Virus record (IMG/VR): IMGVR_UViG_2698536477_000003
Strand: one strand, 5' to 3'
DNA: 52,420 nt
From: a virus
Lineage: Duplodnaviria > Heunggongvirae > Uroviricota > Caudoviricetes
The position numbers were made by a program. How positions within the stretch are numbered: position 1 is the first letter of the stretch; every line of letters begins with the position of its first letter. Positions 9,001 to 12,000 of this stretch are shown in pieces.

Positions 9001-12000
9001 AAATGGCGTCTTTGTGTCTCTTCCTGACGTCGAGGATGTGGACAACGCCGATATTAACCAGCGTCTGCTGGAAGTCATTGAACAGATCGGCAGTTATTCC
9101 AGACAGATTCGTTCAGCAATCGAAGACGGTGTAGTGGAACCGCATGAGAAGACAGCAATTAACGACGAACTGTATCTTTCAATTTCGAAGCTCCAGGAGC
9201 ATGCAGCACTGGTCTACAAAATCTTTTGCGCTCCAGAAAAGAGTGACGCCCGCGAGTGTGCAGCTCCGGGCGTCGTGGCGTTTTGTGTCTGTGGAGAAAC
9301 TAACGCATGAACAGTTTAACGGCAAATAACCGTTTGTCGCAACAGCTGGTGGTCAGCGTCGCTGAACACCTGTTGTTACGGCATGAATGCAGATTACCAA
9401 ATCACCTGGCTGTAAGTAACCACAGAGAACTTTACCTGACTGTGGGGGGCGAGTTGTGCAGGAACTTAACCGCTGGTTTCGTGACGGAAGAGGACTTTAT
9501 GTTCATGTTATTCGTTGGGAGCCAGAAACACAGCGCGTTATCTATCTTCGCAAAGACTACCCGCATGAGTGCTTTAGTCCTTTGTGGAAATTCAGGCGTG
9601 ATTTTGTTGAGTGTGAAGGAACACCAGCATATTGATTCTGCAATTCCGGGACGTTACACTGTTCAGGCACCTTATAAAACGGGTGCCGGGATTGGCGTCC
9701 TGAAATTGATTACTGAGCATAACCGCGCTCATGCGGTTTTTTCGTGTCATGAGCATTACTACGCCCAAATTATGGTGGGGCGTACAGGGCCGACTTCGGT
9801 CGGGCCGGGTTCGGTAGTCTCCGGTAACGCCAACCCTGTACGTCTCACCACCTCTGTGATTGGCGTCCCATGTGGTGAGTTTTCTAAAAAACTGACTACC
9901 GGGGCTGTCACTATGACTACTCTCCCAACCCTCTCTCAACCTGAAATTGCCATCGTTGATGGTCAGGCTGTTACATCTTCTTTGGCTGTTGCTGACTTCT
10001 TCTCTAAACGTCATGACGATGTTCTGAAAAAGATCCGCATTTTGGATTGTTCTCCAGAGTTTTGTGCCCGCAATTTTGCGGAGACATCAATTTTGGTACG
10101 CCAGCCCAACGGCGGTACTCGCAAACTTCCTTGCTATCAAATAACCCGCGACGGCTTTGCGTTTCTTGCTATGGGTTTCACGGGTAAACGTGCTGCCCAG
10201 TTCAAAGAGGCATACATCAACGCCTTTAACCTGATGGAGAAGAGTTTATCAGGTGCCGATGCGTCTGATATGTCAGCTGTCGCACGAAACGCCAGAGGCG
10301 TATACCTGCATTTGCGTGAAATCCATCAAATCTGGACAAGCCAGCTTTATCCAATGCTTAAGGCTGTTGAATCTCCGCTGGCCAGCAAACTGTACGACCG
10401 TGTAGGTGATGCTGTTTTTGGTGCTGCACTTGTTGATTCCTGGCTGAATGGTTCTGACAAGGAGGTTCGCCTATGATCCGCTACCTGAATATTGATTCTA
10501 CAATTCCGGGACGTTACACTGTTCTGGCACCTTATAAAGCGGGTGCCGGGCGTGAGAACCCGGAATTCAATATAGAGCACAACCGCGCTCATGCGGTTTT
10601 TTCGTGTCATGAGCATCATTACGCCCAAATTATGGTGGGGCGTGCAGGGCCAACTTCGGTTGGGCCGGGTTCTATGTTGACCGGTTTCTCACCCCTGTAC
10701 GTCTCACCACCTATTGCCGTGAGAAGCCTTGGTGGTGAGTTCATTGAATTCAACATAGGGGCTGTCACCATGACTACTCTCCCAACCCAATCTCACCCTG
10801 AAATCACGATTATCAATGGTCGTGTTGTCACCACATCTCTTGCAGTTTCGAATTACTTTACTAAACGGCATGAGCGGGTTTTAGATAGAATTCGAAACCT
10901 CGAATGTTCCGCTGAATTTACTGAACACAATTTTGTGTTAAGTGAATACACCGACGCATCAGGCCGCAAACTTCCCTGCTATCAAATCACCCGCGACGGT
11001 TTTGCGTTTCTTGCCATGGGCTTCACTGGTAAACGTGCAGCCAGGTTCAAAGAGGCATACATCAATGCCTTTAACCAGATGGAGAAACAGCTTTCAAAGC
11101 CCGCTGTACCGAGCGACGTTGCACATAACGCCAGCGTTCTCTGTTCCTACATTTCATCAATTCATCAGGTCTGGCTGCAGCAGCTTTATCCTATGTTGGC
11201 AAAAGCCGAATCTCCGCTGGCTGTTAGCTTATATGACTATATTAATGATGCTTCGGCGCTGGCCTGCCTCATAAATTTGTCGCTGAACCCTTCAGAGGCA
11301 AGGGGGCGCAAATGATCCGGAATATTTTCAAACGTTTTACCAATCAGACTTTCCGTTGTCCTCGTCCGGGTCAGTGGTACACCACGCCTGCAGGGCATGT
11401 TCTACGTGTTAGCCTGGTTGACCGTGAATGTCAGAAGGTGATTTGTGAACCGCTGGGCCGTAATTACCGCGTCAGTATGCCGCTTATAGCCTTTCGCTCC
11501 GGAAAAAACATGAAGCATCTCGGAGGTGCAGCATGAGTATGGAGCTGATGGTTAAAGCGATGAAAATTCGAGTGGGTAATCCATTGCGAAAACTGGTTCT
11601 GATCAAGCTGGCTGATAATGCCAGCGATCAGGGTGAGTGCTGGCCCAGCTACCAGCATATTGCTGACCAGTGCGAGATTAGCAAACGTTCTGTGATGAAT
11701 CATATTGCGGCCCTTTGTGAGTCCGGGCTGGTAAAAAAAGTCACCCGGAAAGGTGAAAAAGGTAACTCAAGTAATATCTATCTCCTTCATCTTGATGGTG
11801 CAGGAGATTCACTAGGGAGTAGTGCAAATAATTCACTATCTGGTGCAGCAAATTCACCAGGTAGTGCAGGAGTTGCACCAGGGGGTAGTGCAGGAGATTC
11901 ACCCAGAACCAGTCACTCTTTTGAACCAGTCAAAGAACCAGTCAATGAACCAATAGCTGTTGGTGCATCTGCTGATGAGTCTGTGCGAGTTCGTTCAAAC

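What the first reader, a model, noticed from the sequence alone, without database searches (positions are those of the whole stretch)
9307..11315. Tandemly duplicated Rha modules: N-terminal protein extension or structured RNA leader?
A ~860-bp unit (leader plus Rha gene) occurs twice (9632-10492 and 10493-11315), diverged. The ~280-nt segments upstream of the internal MTTLPT starts are open in the Rha frame in both copies, and copy 2 has a perfect RBS aaggagg at 10473, which argues for N-terminally extended proteins. The same segments also contain conserved hairpins (ggcacc...ggtgcc; ccgcgctcatgcgg+T6; acgccc...gggcgt; gggccgac-ttcg-gtcgggcc), one with a compensatory pair change between copies (g-c to a-t), and substitutions between copies are not third-position biased, which argues for an RNA element. 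Antirepressor genes in P1-type phages are controlled by C4-type antisense RNAs, so an RNA regulator is plausible. With the AntA-like (24582), third Rha (25946) and KilA-N (14203) genes, the prophage has five antirepressor-like regulators.
Basis: partly seen in the sequence, partly recalled or inferred. Interest (0 to 1): 0.55.

Follow-up and report, generated by a model that had tools for sequence, protein, structure and literature searches.

The report
Two antisense-RNA switches guarding Rha genes
The two ~280-base "leaders" are copies of an already known phage RNA switch (an IsrK/SeqA-type decoy RNA plus a C4/CI-type antisense RNA, as in phages P1, P4 and Gifsy-1), each tuned to its own Rha gene. 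They are not an extra protein domain, so the finding is a well-resolved but ordinary case.

Summary
An ~860-bp unit occurs twice in tandem (about 9623-10482 and 10483-11325).

**What each leader is.** Each matches two curated Rfam families above threshold:
- isrK: 60.1 and 58.6 bits (cut-off 50).
- C4 antisense RNA: 82.3 and 82.4 bits (cut-off 45).

**Specificity.** The C4 recognition segments (a', b') differ between the copies. Their target sites upstream (inside isrK) and downstream (against the Rha ribosome-binding site) have changed to match, so the two cassettes have different specificities, as P1 and P7 do.

**Not a protein domain.**
- Leader substitutions show no third-position bias (18/17/19); the Rha coding region does (50/53/89).
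- An identical 20-nt stretch is read in different frames in the two copies.
- Across about 60 related C4 loci, the downstream gene starts just after a2, in any of the three frames relative to the leader.

Rha therefore most likely starts at MTTLPT (9913 and 10770).

**The Pfam "Ash" match** to the translated leader appears to be a translation of this RNA cassette; it also covers the P4 CI RNA.

**One open point.** In enteric cassettes the frame through the leader is unusually free of stop codons. The Gifsy-1 orf45 upstream ORF starts at the same AUG, and here it runs in frame into Rha. Translation through the leader therefore remains possible.

**Verdict:** new member of a known kind.

The parts
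9632..9660 (+). Inferred sigma-70 promoter of cassette 1 (TTGATT 9632-9637, 17-nt spacer, TACACT 9655-9660). The predicted start at about 9667 is the first base of the isrK match.
   Evidence: Read from the sequence. Conserved in both copies and in relatives. Same position as the mapped isrK promoter of Gifsy-1 (PMC4825925). It scores 8 of 12 consensus matches and was not listed by the consensus scan, which requires 9 of 12.
9667..9743 (+). isrK/SeqA-type RNA of cassette 1. It carries target sites b1 (9692-9698) and a1 (9708-9718) and an intrinsic terminator (9721-9738 plus a T run).
   Evidence: Rfam RF01394, 60.1 bits, cut-off 50. Terminator scan. Complementarity to a'/b'.
9768..9855 (+). 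C4/CI-type antisense RNA of cassette 1. Conserved AUG at 9772-9774. Recognition segments a' 9809-9819 (GTTCGGTAGTC) and b' 9827-9833 (ACGCCAA).
   Evidence: Rfam RF01695, 82.3 bits, cut-off 45. Structure supported by covariation in 60 relatives.
9860..9904 (+). Downstream targets of cassette 1: b2 9860-9866 (TTGGCGT) and a2 9894-9903 (GACTACCGGG). a2 overlaps the GGGG Shine-Dalgarno-like element at 9901-9904.
   Evidence: Contiguous complementarity of 7 and 10 nt to b' and a'. Same layout in about 50 related loci.
9913..10476 (+). rha1, most likely start MTTLPT (187 aa); Phage_pRha domain at residues 21-110.
   Evidence: Pfam PF09669, 93.2 bits. Third-position bias begins here. The start lies 9-12 nt after a2, as in relatives.
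10459..10475 (+). AAGGAGG (10459-10465) and ATG 10473, which overlaps the rha1 stop codon (ATGA). This is the cassette junction; it opens the long ORF through leader 2.
   Evidence: The same ATGA junction lies upstream of cassettes in L001, L027, L071 and L008.
10492..10520 (+). Inferred promoter of cassette 2 (TTGATT 10492-10497, TACACT 10515-10520).
   Evidence: Identical to cassette 1 in the alignment.
10527..10603 (+). isrK/SeqA-type RNA of cassette 2. b1 10552-10558 (GTGAGAA), a1 10567-10578, terminator 10581-10598 plus a T run.
   Evidence: Rfam RF01394, 58.6 bits.
10628..10714 (+). C4/CI-type antisense RNA of cassette 2. AUG 10632-10634; a' 10669-10680 (GTTCTATGTTGA); b' 10686-10692 (TTCTCAC).
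   Evidence: Rfam RF01695, 82.4 bits.
10719..10761 (+). Downstream targets of cassette 2: b2 10719-10727 and a2 10750-10760 (TCAACATAGGG). a2 overlaps the GGGG element at 10758-10761.
   Evidence: Complementarity of 9 and 11 nt.
10770..11315 (+). rha2, most likely start MTTLPT (181 aa); 57% identical to Rha1.
   Evidence: Pfam PF09669, 105.4 bits; BLASTP.
10120..10241 (+). Conserved 122-nt core of rha1, 91% identical to 10965-11086 in rha2. This is the crossover site that collapses the tandem into the common single chimeric cassette.
   Evidence: Sliding identity of L002 against copy 1 and copy 2.

Best explanation
Each ~860-bp unit is a self-contained antisense-RNA control cassette of the P4/P1/Gifsy-1 type placed in front of a Rha-family regulator gene.

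**Order of parts in each unit:**
- its own promoter;
- an IsrK/SeqA-type RNA that carries decoy sites a1 and b1 and ends at an intrinsic terminator;
- a C4/CI-type RNA whose exposed segments a' and b' are the recognition elements;
- the true targets b2 and a2, with a2 lying on the ribosome-binding site of rha;
- the rha gene, starting at MTTLPT.

**Steps shown here:**
- The RNA family identity.
- The conserved structure.
- Three-way complementarity between a'/b' and both sets of targets.
- Matching changes at all three places between the two copies, which give two different specificities.

**Steps inferred from the characterised homologues:**
- C4 is cut out of read-through transcripts.
- C4 pairs with b2/a2 and blocks rha translation, and through loss of translation also blocks downstream transcription.
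- The short IsrK RNA, or the same sequence in cis, pairs with a'/b' and shifts the balance towards expression.

**The long open frames.** They are not conserved protein domains. The tandem pair most likely arose by recombination between allelic cassettes at conserved gene-boundary sequences. It readily collapses, by recombination within the conserved rha core, into the single chimeric cassette that is common in E. coli.
For: - **RNA families.** Rfam C4 at 82.3/82.4 bits (cut-off 45) and isrK at 60.1/58.6 bits (cut-off 50), in both copies and in the same order. The same pair in the same order is found in P4 and Gifsy-1.
- **Structure.** In 60 C4 sequences collected here, 17 of 27 predicted pairs keep pairing through changes on both sides.
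- **Cognate pairing in the window.** a' pairs with a1 and a2 over 11 and 10 nt in copy 1, and 12 and 11 nt in copy 2. b' pairs with b1 and b2 over 7 and 7 nt, and 7 and 9 nt. Non-cognate best matches are 5-9 nt, at unrelated positions.
- **Cognate pairing across 59 loci.** Self-complementarity of at least 7 nt occurs in 92-97% of loci, against 20-44% for non-self pairs.
- **Position of the gene start.** a2 abuts or overlaps the Shine-Dalgarno element, and the start codon follows a few bases (0-21 nt; 9-12 nt in the Rha-type cassettes) later in most of these loci.
- **Where the copies differ.** The leader differences cluster in b1/a1, a'/b' and b2/a2.
- **No protein-type constraint.** Differences by codon position are 18/17/19 in the leader and 50/53/89 in rha. 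The leader is 80% identical between copies, the coding region 65%.
- **Frame shift between copies.** CCCTGTACGTCTCACCACCT is read PVRLTT in copy 1 and PLYVSPP in copy 2.
- **Alternative folds.** The full-leader minimum-free-energy fold is the cis a1b1:a'b' helix. For copy 1 the centroid structure is instead the C4 fold; for copy 2 the centroid equals the minimum-free-energy structure. Z-scores are -4.05 and -5.0. This matches the alternative structures A and B described for Gifsy-1 (PMC4825925).
- **Prior literature.** The IsrK-C4 pair in lambdoid prophages is equated with P4 seqA/CI in PMC3632133.
- **Origin and decay of the tandem.** The single E. coli allele equals the left half of copy 1 plus the right half of copy 2. 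Other tandem pairs occur in L027, L028 and L110.
Against: - No expression data are available. The promoter matches only 8 of 12 consensus positions and was not picked up by the scan.
- The rha Shine-Dalgarno element is weak (GGGG).
- The Rfam model for the a1/b1 targets (RF03163) scores only about 22 bits against a cut-off of 46.7.
- The leader is open in the Rha frame in both copies. In enteric relatives that frame is depleted of stop codons, which an RNA-only model does not predict.
- Rha has not been shown to be an antirepressor. The Gifsy-1 cargo, AnrP, is an ORF6N protein unrelated in sequence to Rha.
Confidence: 0.85

Rival explanations
1. RNA cassette plus translated leader. The cassettes are RNA switches as described above, but the open frame through them is also used. 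Ribosomes would start either at the conserved C4 AUG (the Gifsy-1 orf45 start) or at the coupled ATG upstream of the promoter (10473) on read-through transcripts. They would read through isrK and C4 into rha. This would melt the RNA structures, override the terminator and Rho-dependent polarity, and yield an N-terminally extended Rha isoform. Only the openness of the frame would be selected, not the peptide sequence.
For: - Gifsy-1 orf45 starts at the same AUG, is translated, and is needed for anrP translation (PMC4825925). Here the equivalent ORF runs 47 codons in frame into Rha.
- In viral-contig C4 loci the frame of the C4 AUG is stop-free across the leader in 44 of 66 sequences, against 5 and 7 for the other two frames. 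Among 35 de-replicated sequences the counts are 16, 4 and 6, with about 2 expected from shuffling.
- Stop triplets in the hypervariable a/b segments number 7, 35 and 31 by frame.
- Rare stop positions number 20, 35 and 25 by frame; the 20 in the AUG frame all lie in 12 outlying sequences.
- A 1-nt loss in b' is paired with a 2-nt loss before b2, which restores the frame, in two lineages.
- ATGA junctions with a Shine-Dalgarno element recur upstream of cassettes.
Against: - The sequences are related, so the counts are not independent.
- Gifsy-1, L033 and many other loci have stops or out-of-frame cargo.
- 100 Pseudomonas-type C4 loci show no depletion: total stops by frame are 209/220/211.
- There is no Shine-Dalgarno element in front of the C4 AUG.
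- L055 and L038 keep the cargo protein although it is 1 nt out of frame with the leader.
Confidence: 0.3
2. Genuine N-terminal protein domain. The leaders would encode a functional 'Ash' domain (Pfam PF10554) fused to Rha, and the RNA-like hairpins would be incidental.
For: - Pfam Phage_ASH matches the translated leader of ORF1 at 40.6 bits against a cut-off of 26.
- RefSeq annotates long 'Rha family' and 'ash family' proteins that cover the leader.
- The frames are open in both copies.
Against: - There is no third-position bias.
- Eight codons of identical DNA are read in different frames in the two copies and in Gifsy-1.
- The Pfam match in P4 lies on the CI RNA gene.
- Compensatory base-pair changes dominate the variation.
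- The cargo frame varies among loci.
- ORF2 scores only 16.9 bits, below the cut-off.
Confidence: 0.04
3. Decaying duplicate. One of the two cassettes would be a non-functional relic of a recent duplication.
For: - The tandem form is rare: 4 of the 25 best E. coli hits are contiguous full-length matches, among 5426 genomes searched.
- It collapses into a single chimeric cassette.
Against: - Both cassettes keep promoter, terminator, C4 structure, all six pairing sites and intact Rha ORFs.
- The differences between them are coordinated across the three pairing partners, which is not what decay produces.
- Each type also occurs singly elsewhere, for example L027 and L071.
Confidence: 0.08

Closest known systems
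Gifsy-1 isrK-orf45-anrP locus of Salmonella (Hershko-Shalev et al. 2016, PMC4825925)
   Same: - Same order of elements: promoter, IsrK with terminator, C4-like RNA (STnc1160), target on the cargo ribosome-binding site.
- Same conserved AUG at the 5' end of C4.
- Same b specificity as window copy 1 (ACGCCAA / TTGGCGT).
- Same predicted alternative folds.
   Different: - The cargo is an ORF6N protein, not Rha.
- orf45 ends at AUGA on the cargo start. In the window the equivalent ORF has no stop and is in frame with Rha.
- The locus sits after Q rather than between cII and the replication genes.
- It is single, not tandem.
Satellite phage P4 immunity region (seqA - CI RNA - seqC - kil/eta)
   Same: - Rfam isrK and C4 hits in the same order.
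- The cargo N-terminus MATTLTP resembles the window's MTTLPT.
- The b determinant (TTCTCAC / GTGAGAA) is shared with window copy 2.
- The historical 'cI ORF137' is the same kind of open frame across the RNA.
   Different: - The cargo is the small kil/eta genes, followed by epsilon and the alpha replication operon.
- The spacer between isrK and C4 is longer.
- The a determinant differs.
P1/P7 immI operon (c4 - icd - ant1/ant2; Citron & Schuster 1990, as cited in PMC8198154)
   Same: - A C4 antisense RNA with a'/b' recognition segments and targets both upstream and downstream.
- It controls an antirepressor-type gene.
- Two natural specificities (P1 versus P7), analogous to window copy 1 versus copy 2.
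   Different: - P1 has a separate small icd gene between c4 and ant; the window has none.
- The P1 operon is also under C1 repressor control.
- No P1 sequence was compared here. This comparison rests on the literature and on Rfam family membership.
Pfam PF10554 Phage_ASH ('Ash protein family')
   Same: It matches the translated leader over residues 117-212 of ORF1.
   Different: - It behaves as the conceptual translation of an RNA cassette, not as a protein domain.
- The real P4 derepressor epsilon belongs to PF25738.

Membership tests
Rfam RF01695 C4 antisense RNA (P1 c4 / P4 CI) | Covariance-model score at or above the curated gathering score | tested here: met
   82.3 bits (9768-9855) and 82.4 bits (10628-10714) against 45; full-length model match 1-87.
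Rfam RF01695 C4 antisense RNA (P1 c4 / P4 CI) | A long outer stem enclosing two hairpins, supported by covariation | tested here: met
   The minimum-free-energy folds of both copies give this shape. In the 60-sequence alignment, 17 of 27 pairs show double-sided compensatory changes.
Rfam RF01695 C4 antisense RNA (P1 c4 / P4 CI) | Exposed a' and b' segments complementary to targets both upstream (a1/b1) and downstream (a2/b2) | tested here: met
   Contiguous pairing of 7-12 nt at all eight cognate combinations; non-cognate combinations are weaker and mis-positioned. The pattern holds in 59 loci.
Rfam RF01695 C4 antisense RNA (P1 c4 / P4 CI) | The downstream target covers the ribosome-binding site of the first controlled gene | tested here: met
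   a2 at 9894-9903 and 10750-10760 overlaps the GGGG elements at 9901-9904 and 10758-10761, 8 nt before the ATG.
Rfam RF01695 C4 antisense RNA (P1 c4 / P4 CI) | Processing from a longer transcript and repression in trans | not testable with these tools
   This needs RNA analysis and genetics. Only the 3' CACCACC tail typical of the family is visible.
Rfam RF01394 isrK (P4 seqA) | Score at or above the gathering score, with a terminal intrinsic terminator | tested here: met
   60.1 and 58.6 bits against 50. Terminator-like sites at 9721-9738 and 10581-10598 followed by T runs.
Rfam RF01394 isrK (P4 seqA) | Own promoter directly upstream | tested here: inconclusive
   TTGATT-17-TACACT is conserved and correctly placed. 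It matches only 8 of 12 consensus positions and fell below the scan's threshold.
Gifsy-1 isrK-orf45-anrP design | An upstream ORF that starts at the C4 AUG and stops on the cargo start codon (AUGA) | tested here: not met
   The AUG is present (9772 and 10632), but there is no stop: 47 and 46 codons run in frame into Rha. In Gifsy-1 itself the ORF has 45 codons and ends in ATGA.
Rfam RF03163 c4-a1b1 targets | Score at or above the gathering score | tested here: not met
   21.7 and 22.5 bits against 46.7. The same stretch is covered by the isrK model, and the pairing sites are present.
Pfam PF10554 Phage_ASH as a protein domain | Protein-type conservation: a consistent frame and an excess of third-position change | tested here: not met
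   Differences by codon position are 18/17/19. There is a local frame shift between the copies. The HMM score passes for ORF1 (40.6 bits) but not for ORF2 (16.9 bits).
Pfam PF09669 Phage_pRha | Domain score above the cut-off | tested here: met
   93.2 and 105.4 bits against 29.9; the domain starts at residue 21 of the short forms.
P1 immI operon | A separate icd-like small gene between c4 and the antirepressor | tested here: not met
   rha follows the a2 site directly.

The most novel reading that the evidence does not exclude
In the enterobacterial IsrK-C4 cassettes, including both copies here, the reading frame that runs through the promoter-proximal ATG, isrK, the terminator, C4 and into the cargo gene would be kept free of stop codons by selection, although the peptide itself is unconstrained. 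Ribosomes entering from the upstream gene (ATGA coupling), or starting at the C4 AUG, would then act as a second input: translation through the RNA genes would unfold them, override the terminator and antisense control, and let early-operon transcripts reach the replication genes. In a tandem array, translation of rha1 would be coupled to derepression of rha2. As a corollary, the Pfam 'Ash' family would be an RNA cassette read as protein.
Probability: 0.3. Interest if true: 0.55.

Novelty: new member of a known kind. Interest (0 to 1): 0.3.

Why it matters
- **Annotation.** Both Rha genes, like their counterparts in the related RefSeq E. coli records examined here (L001, L002), are called with about 100 spurious N-terminal residues, and the RNA genes are not annotated. 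"Ash family protein" and "Ash domain of unknown function" in Stx-phage papers (PMC8951638) most likely refer to this RNA cassette. PF10554 has also been used as a marker for P4 epsilon (PMC8628076), although the P4 epsilon protein itself matches PF25738.
- **Biology.** The locus is a natural pair of heterospecific antisense switches side by side. The a and b determinants are visibly shuffled among phages, which makes it a compact system for studying how RNA-based immunity specificities diversify.
- **Open point.** The unexplained depletion of stop codons through the RNA genes is the only part that could lead somewhere new.

Tried and rejected
- **Promoter scan.** It did not list the conserved TTGATT-17-TACACT, which has 8 of 12 matches against a threshold of 9. 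The promoter therefore remains inferred.
- **RNAduplex on the a'/b' regions.** Cognate energies were better, but the structures had large internal loops and were hard to read. I replaced it with contiguous-pairing counts.
- **Protein search with the 99-aa leader peptide.** It returned only 27 mostly partial "ash family" entries. This was useful for names only.
- **AlphaFold2 on ORF2 without an alignment.** Every residue, including the Rha domain, had pLDDT below 50, so the model says nothing about the leader. No fold search was run.
- **Synonymous-shuffle test.** I tested whether the long C4-AUG frame across the out-of-frame MANRK gene is surprising. P ranged from 0.006 to 0.34 depending on the sequence, which is suggestive only.
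- **Rha as a sequence homologue of Gifsy-1 AnrP.** Rejected: AnrP is an ORF6N protein and BLASTP gives E = 1.4.
- **P4 primary paper PMC176756.** Not held in the library.
- **In-situ duplication followed by divergence.** Considered less likely than recombination between alleles, because each cassette type occurs singly elsewhere and other pairings of cassettes exist.
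Full report
**1. Checking the observation**

The region contains a diverged tandem duplication.
- Repeat finding gives direct repeats spaced 860, 845 and 839 nt apart. These include 9623-9825 vs 10483-10685 (86% identity) and 10120-10241 vs 10965-11086 (91%).
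- A pairwise alignment of the two units has 83% mean column identity.
- Both leaders are open in the Rha frame: ORF 9307-10476 and ORF 10473-11315.
- The MTTLPT start codons are at 9913 and 10770.
- AAGGAGG is at 10459-10465, and the ATG at 10473 overlaps the stop codon of the first Rha ORF (ATGA).

**2. What the leaders are**

A search of 8000-13000 against Rfam gave two matches in each leader, in the same order. Both were confirmed at gathering thresholds on the whole window.

| Family | Copy 1 | Copy 2 | Cut-off |
|---|---|---|---|
| isrK (RF01394) | 9667-9743, 60.1 bits | 10527-10603, 58.6 bits | 50 |
| C4 antisense RNA (RF01695) | 9768-9855, 82.3 bits | 10628-10714, 82.4 bits | 45 |

- GGCACC...GGTGCC is the first isrK hairpin.
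- CCGCGCTCATGCGG plus T6 is the isrK terminator.
- GGGCCGAC-TTCG-GTCGGGCC is C4 hairpin 1, which carries the compensatory change.

The same isrK-then-C4 pair is found in satellite phage P4 (L124: isrK 8692-8615, C4 8507-8420) and in Gifsy-1 (L125: isrK 34316-34240, C4 34214-34131). The literature already equates IsrK with P4 SeqA and C4 with P4 CI RNA, and notes that lambdoid prophages carry this pair (PMC3632133; PMC4825925).

**3. Anatomy and specificity**

The C4 segments exposed in the fold are the loop of hairpin 2 (a') and the strand between hairpin 2 and the outer stem (b').

| Element | Copy 1 | Copy 2 |
|---|---|---|
| a' | GTTCGGTAGTC, 9809-9819 | GTTCTATGTTGA, 10669-10680 |
| b' | ACGCCAA, 9827-9833 | TTCTCAC, 10686-10692 |
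| a' pairs with a1 | 9708-9718, 11 nt | 10567-10578, 12 nt |
| a' pairs with a2 | 9894-9903, 10 nt | 10750-10760, 11 nt |
| b' pairs with b1 | 9692-9698, 7 nt | 10552-10558, 7 nt |
| b' pairs with b2 | 9860-9866, 7 nt | 10719-10727, 9 nt |

- Non-cognate combinations give only 5-9 nt, rich in G-U pairs and at unrelated positions.
- The differences between the two leaders cluster in exactly these three places.
- a2 overlaps the GGGG element 8 nt before each Rha ATG.
- A conserved TTGATT-17-TACACT lies 7 nt upstream of each isrK match. This is the position of the mapped isrK promoter in Gifsy-1. It is a weak consensus match and was not flagged by the scan, so the promoter is inferred.
- Folding the whole leader gives, for both copies, a minimum-free-energy structure in which a1/b1 pair in cis with a'/b', and the ACGCCC...GGGCGT hairpin holds the C4 AUG in its loop.
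- For copy 1 the centroid is instead the C4 fold. Z-scores are -4.05 and -5.0.
- These are the two alternative conformations described experimentally for Gifsy-1 (PMC4825925).

**4. Relatives**

A pattern scan of viral contigs yielded about 60 distinct genuine C4 elements.
- In an alignment of 60 of them, 17 of 27 predicted pairs are maintained through changes on both sides.
- Each C4 matches its own upstream and downstream targets over at least 7 nt in 92-97% of loci, against 20-44% for targets from other loci.
- The a and b determinants are combined freely. For example, the a' of window copy 2 occurs with a different b' in L008.
- The b determinant of copy 2 is that of P4. The b determinant of copy 1 is that of Gifsy-1.
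- In most of these loci the a2 site abuts a Shine-Dalgarno element, and a start codon follows a few bases (0-21 nt; 9-12 nt in the Rha-type cassettes) later.

**5. Protein or RNA?**

Several independent results argue against a conserved N-terminal protein domain.
- **Substitution pattern.** Differences between the copies by codon position are 18/17/19 in the leader and 50/53/89 in the Rha coding region. The leader is also more conserved than the gene: 80% against 65% DNA identity, with the proteins 57% identical.
- **Local frame shift.** The two copies differ by a 1-nt deletion in b' and a 1-nt insertion after the C4 3' end. The identical sequence CCCTGTACGTCTCACCACCT is therefore read PVRLTT in copy 1 and PLYVSPP in copy 2. 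Gifsy-1 reads it in the copy-2 phase.
- **Cargo frame varies.** Among relatives the start after a2 lies in frame 0, 1 or 2 relative to the C4 AUG. By my grouping of the N-terminal families listed, this is roughly 4, 6 and 9 families.
- **A natural frameshift.** L055 and L038 encode the same small protein as L078 but 1 nt out of frame with the leader.
- **Pseudomonas-type loci.** In 100 C4 loci from the genome collection, stops are equally common in all three frames (209/220/211), and the ORF from the AUG is usually 14-50 codons.
- **The AUG itself.** Five of the 60 aligned C4 elements lack it.

The Rha proteins therefore most likely start at MTTLPT. This places the Phage_pRha domain at residue 21.

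**6. The Pfam 'Ash' match**

- The translated leader of ORF1 hits PF10554 Phage_ASH (residues 117-212, 40.6 bits). ORF2 is below the cut-off.
- In P4 the same family hits the historical 'cI gene product (AA 1-137)' at residues 22-85. That stretch lies on the CI RNA gene.
- The real P4 derepressor, epsilon, belongs to PF25738.
- The family therefore appears to be a conceptual translation of the seqA/CI cassette plus the first codons of the cargo gene.
- RefSeq accordingly calls long 'Rha family' and 'ash family' proteins across the leader.
- One paper describes an 'Ash domain' of unknown function in Rha proteins of Stx phages (PMC8951638). Another used PF10554 as the epsilon marker (PMC8628076).

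**7. What remains open: translation through the leader**

- In Gifsy-1, orf45 starts at the conserved C4 AUG and ends in ATGA on the anrP start. It is translated and is needed for anrP translation. Its nucleotide sequence is conserved but its amino-acid sequence is not (PMC4825925).
- In the window the equivalent ORF has no stop. It runs 47 (copy 1) or 46 (copy 2) codons in frame into Rha.
- In the viral-contig set, the frame in phase with the AUG is stop-free over -120..+135 in 44 of 66 sequences, against 5 and 7 for the other frames. After crude de-replication to 35 sequences the counts are 16, 4 and 6, with about 2 expected from shuffling.
- Within the fast-evolving a/b segments, stop triplets number 7, 35 and 31 by frame.
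- Rare stop positions number 20, 35 and 25. The 20 in the AUG frame all lie in 12 outlying sequences.
- A 1-nt loss in b' is accompanied by a 2-nt loss before b2 in two lineages, which restores the frame.
- Upstream of the promoter, an ATG overlapping the previous gene's stop codon (ATGA) recurs in five different contexts.
- The sequences are related, so these counts are not independent. Exceptions also exist: Gifsy-1, L033 and L047.
- I therefore treat selection for an open, translatable leader as a rival or addition at about 0.3, not as shown.

**8. Origin of the tandem**

- Only 4 of the 25 listed E. coli hits (5426 genomes searched) match the query as one contiguous full-length piece (H1-H4). 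The other 21 listed hits span about 1395 nt in two pieces.
- That common single cassette (L002) is about 100% identical to copy 1 on the left and to copy 2 on the right. The crossover lies in the 122-nt conserved Rha core. It is the product expected from recombination between the two copies.
- Each cassette type also occurs singly (L027, L071).
- Other tandem pairs exist with different partners: L027, L028 and L110. L173 and L190 each carry two pattern matches 0.7-1.1 kb apart.
- Tandem arrays of heterospecific cassettes are therefore a recurrent, unstable arrangement.

**9. Context**

The cassettes sit in the early rightward operon of a lambdoid prophage.

| Gene or element | Coordinates |
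|---|---|
| CI-like S24 repressor (minus strand) | 7716-8408 |
| cro-like | 8506-8766 |
| CII/YmfL | 8759-9310 |
| DUF4222 | 9456-9635 |
| Cassettes 1 and 2 | about 9623-11325 |
| 74-aa ORF | 11312-11536 |
| O-like replication gene | 11533-12351 |
| PerC | 12348-12821 |

Calling Rha an antirepressor rests on position alone. The Gifsy-1 cargo AnrP is an unrelated ORF6N protein.

**10. Verdict**

The element is a new member, in tandem heterospecific form, of the known IsrK/SeqA-C4/CI antisense control family. Interest is modest. The annotation consequence for 'Ash' and the stop-codon depletion are the points worth a follow-up.

Noticed in passing
window 9655-9943; L124 (phage P4) 8329-8521: Pfam PF10554 'Phage_ASH' appears to be the conceptual translation of the isrK/seqA + C4/CI RNA cassette. 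In P4 it matches the old 'cI ORF137' on top of the CI RNA gene, while the real epsilon protein is PF25738. Published work treats it as a protein domain or as an epsilon marker.
   Followed up: partly
L002 1823-2690 (E. coli RM14516) versus window 9623-11325: The common single-cassette allele in E. coli is a chimera: copy-1 leader and Rha N-terminal half joined to the copy-2 Rha C-terminal half. The crossover lies in the 122-nt repeat 10120-10241 / 10965-11086.
   Followed up: yes
L027 4574-5421; L028 3562-4406; L110 7740-8581; L173 6881-7648; L190 5305-6431: Other tandem pairs of C4 elements with different partner combinations: L027, L028 and L110 have both isrK and C4 confirmed by Rfam. L173 (Pseudomonas putida) and L190 (Pantoea) each carry two C4 pattern matches 0.7-1.1 kb apart; isrK was not searched there.
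   Followed up: partly
viral-contig C4 loci L004-L123, region -120..+135 around the C4 AUG: Stop codons are depleted in the frame of the C4 AUG in enteric isrK-positive cassettes: 44 of 66 sequences are stop-free, against 5 and 7 for the other frames. In the hypervariable segments the stop counts by frame are 7/35/31. There is no depletion in 100 Pseudomonas-type loci (209/220/211).
   Followed up: partly
L026, L030, L052, L054, L061, L065, L091, L102, L109, L119: In a family whose cargo is a 76-aa 'MANRK...' protein (third-position bias 25/24/45), the C4-AUG frame stays open for 148 codons across that gene in another frame. In most members it ends exactly at the ATGA of the next gene. In L054 it fuses in frame with the next gene.
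   Followed up: partly
window 10459-10476 and 11298-11315; L001, L027, L071, L008 upstream of their cassettes: Cassette boundaries coincide with a conserved Shine-Dalgarno-ATGA gene junction (ATGATYCGC...). This resembles the start of the 74-aa gene that follows the array (11312). It is a plausible recombination site for adding or removing cassettes.
   Followed up: partly
window 19721-19933 and 18058-18309: A strong Rfam STnc100 sRNA match (157.9 bits) lies downstream of a tRNA cluster (Met, Arg, Arg).
   Followed up: no
window 9307-9635: The upstream part of ORF1 (9307-9632) overlaps, in another frame, a DUF4222 gene (9456-9635; Pfam 51.2 bits) whose stop codon lies inside the -35 box of cassette 1. 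The RefSeq start for the Rha CDS in L001 corresponds to window position 9565, an ATG in this open stretch upstream of the promoter inferred for cassette 1.
   Followed up: partly
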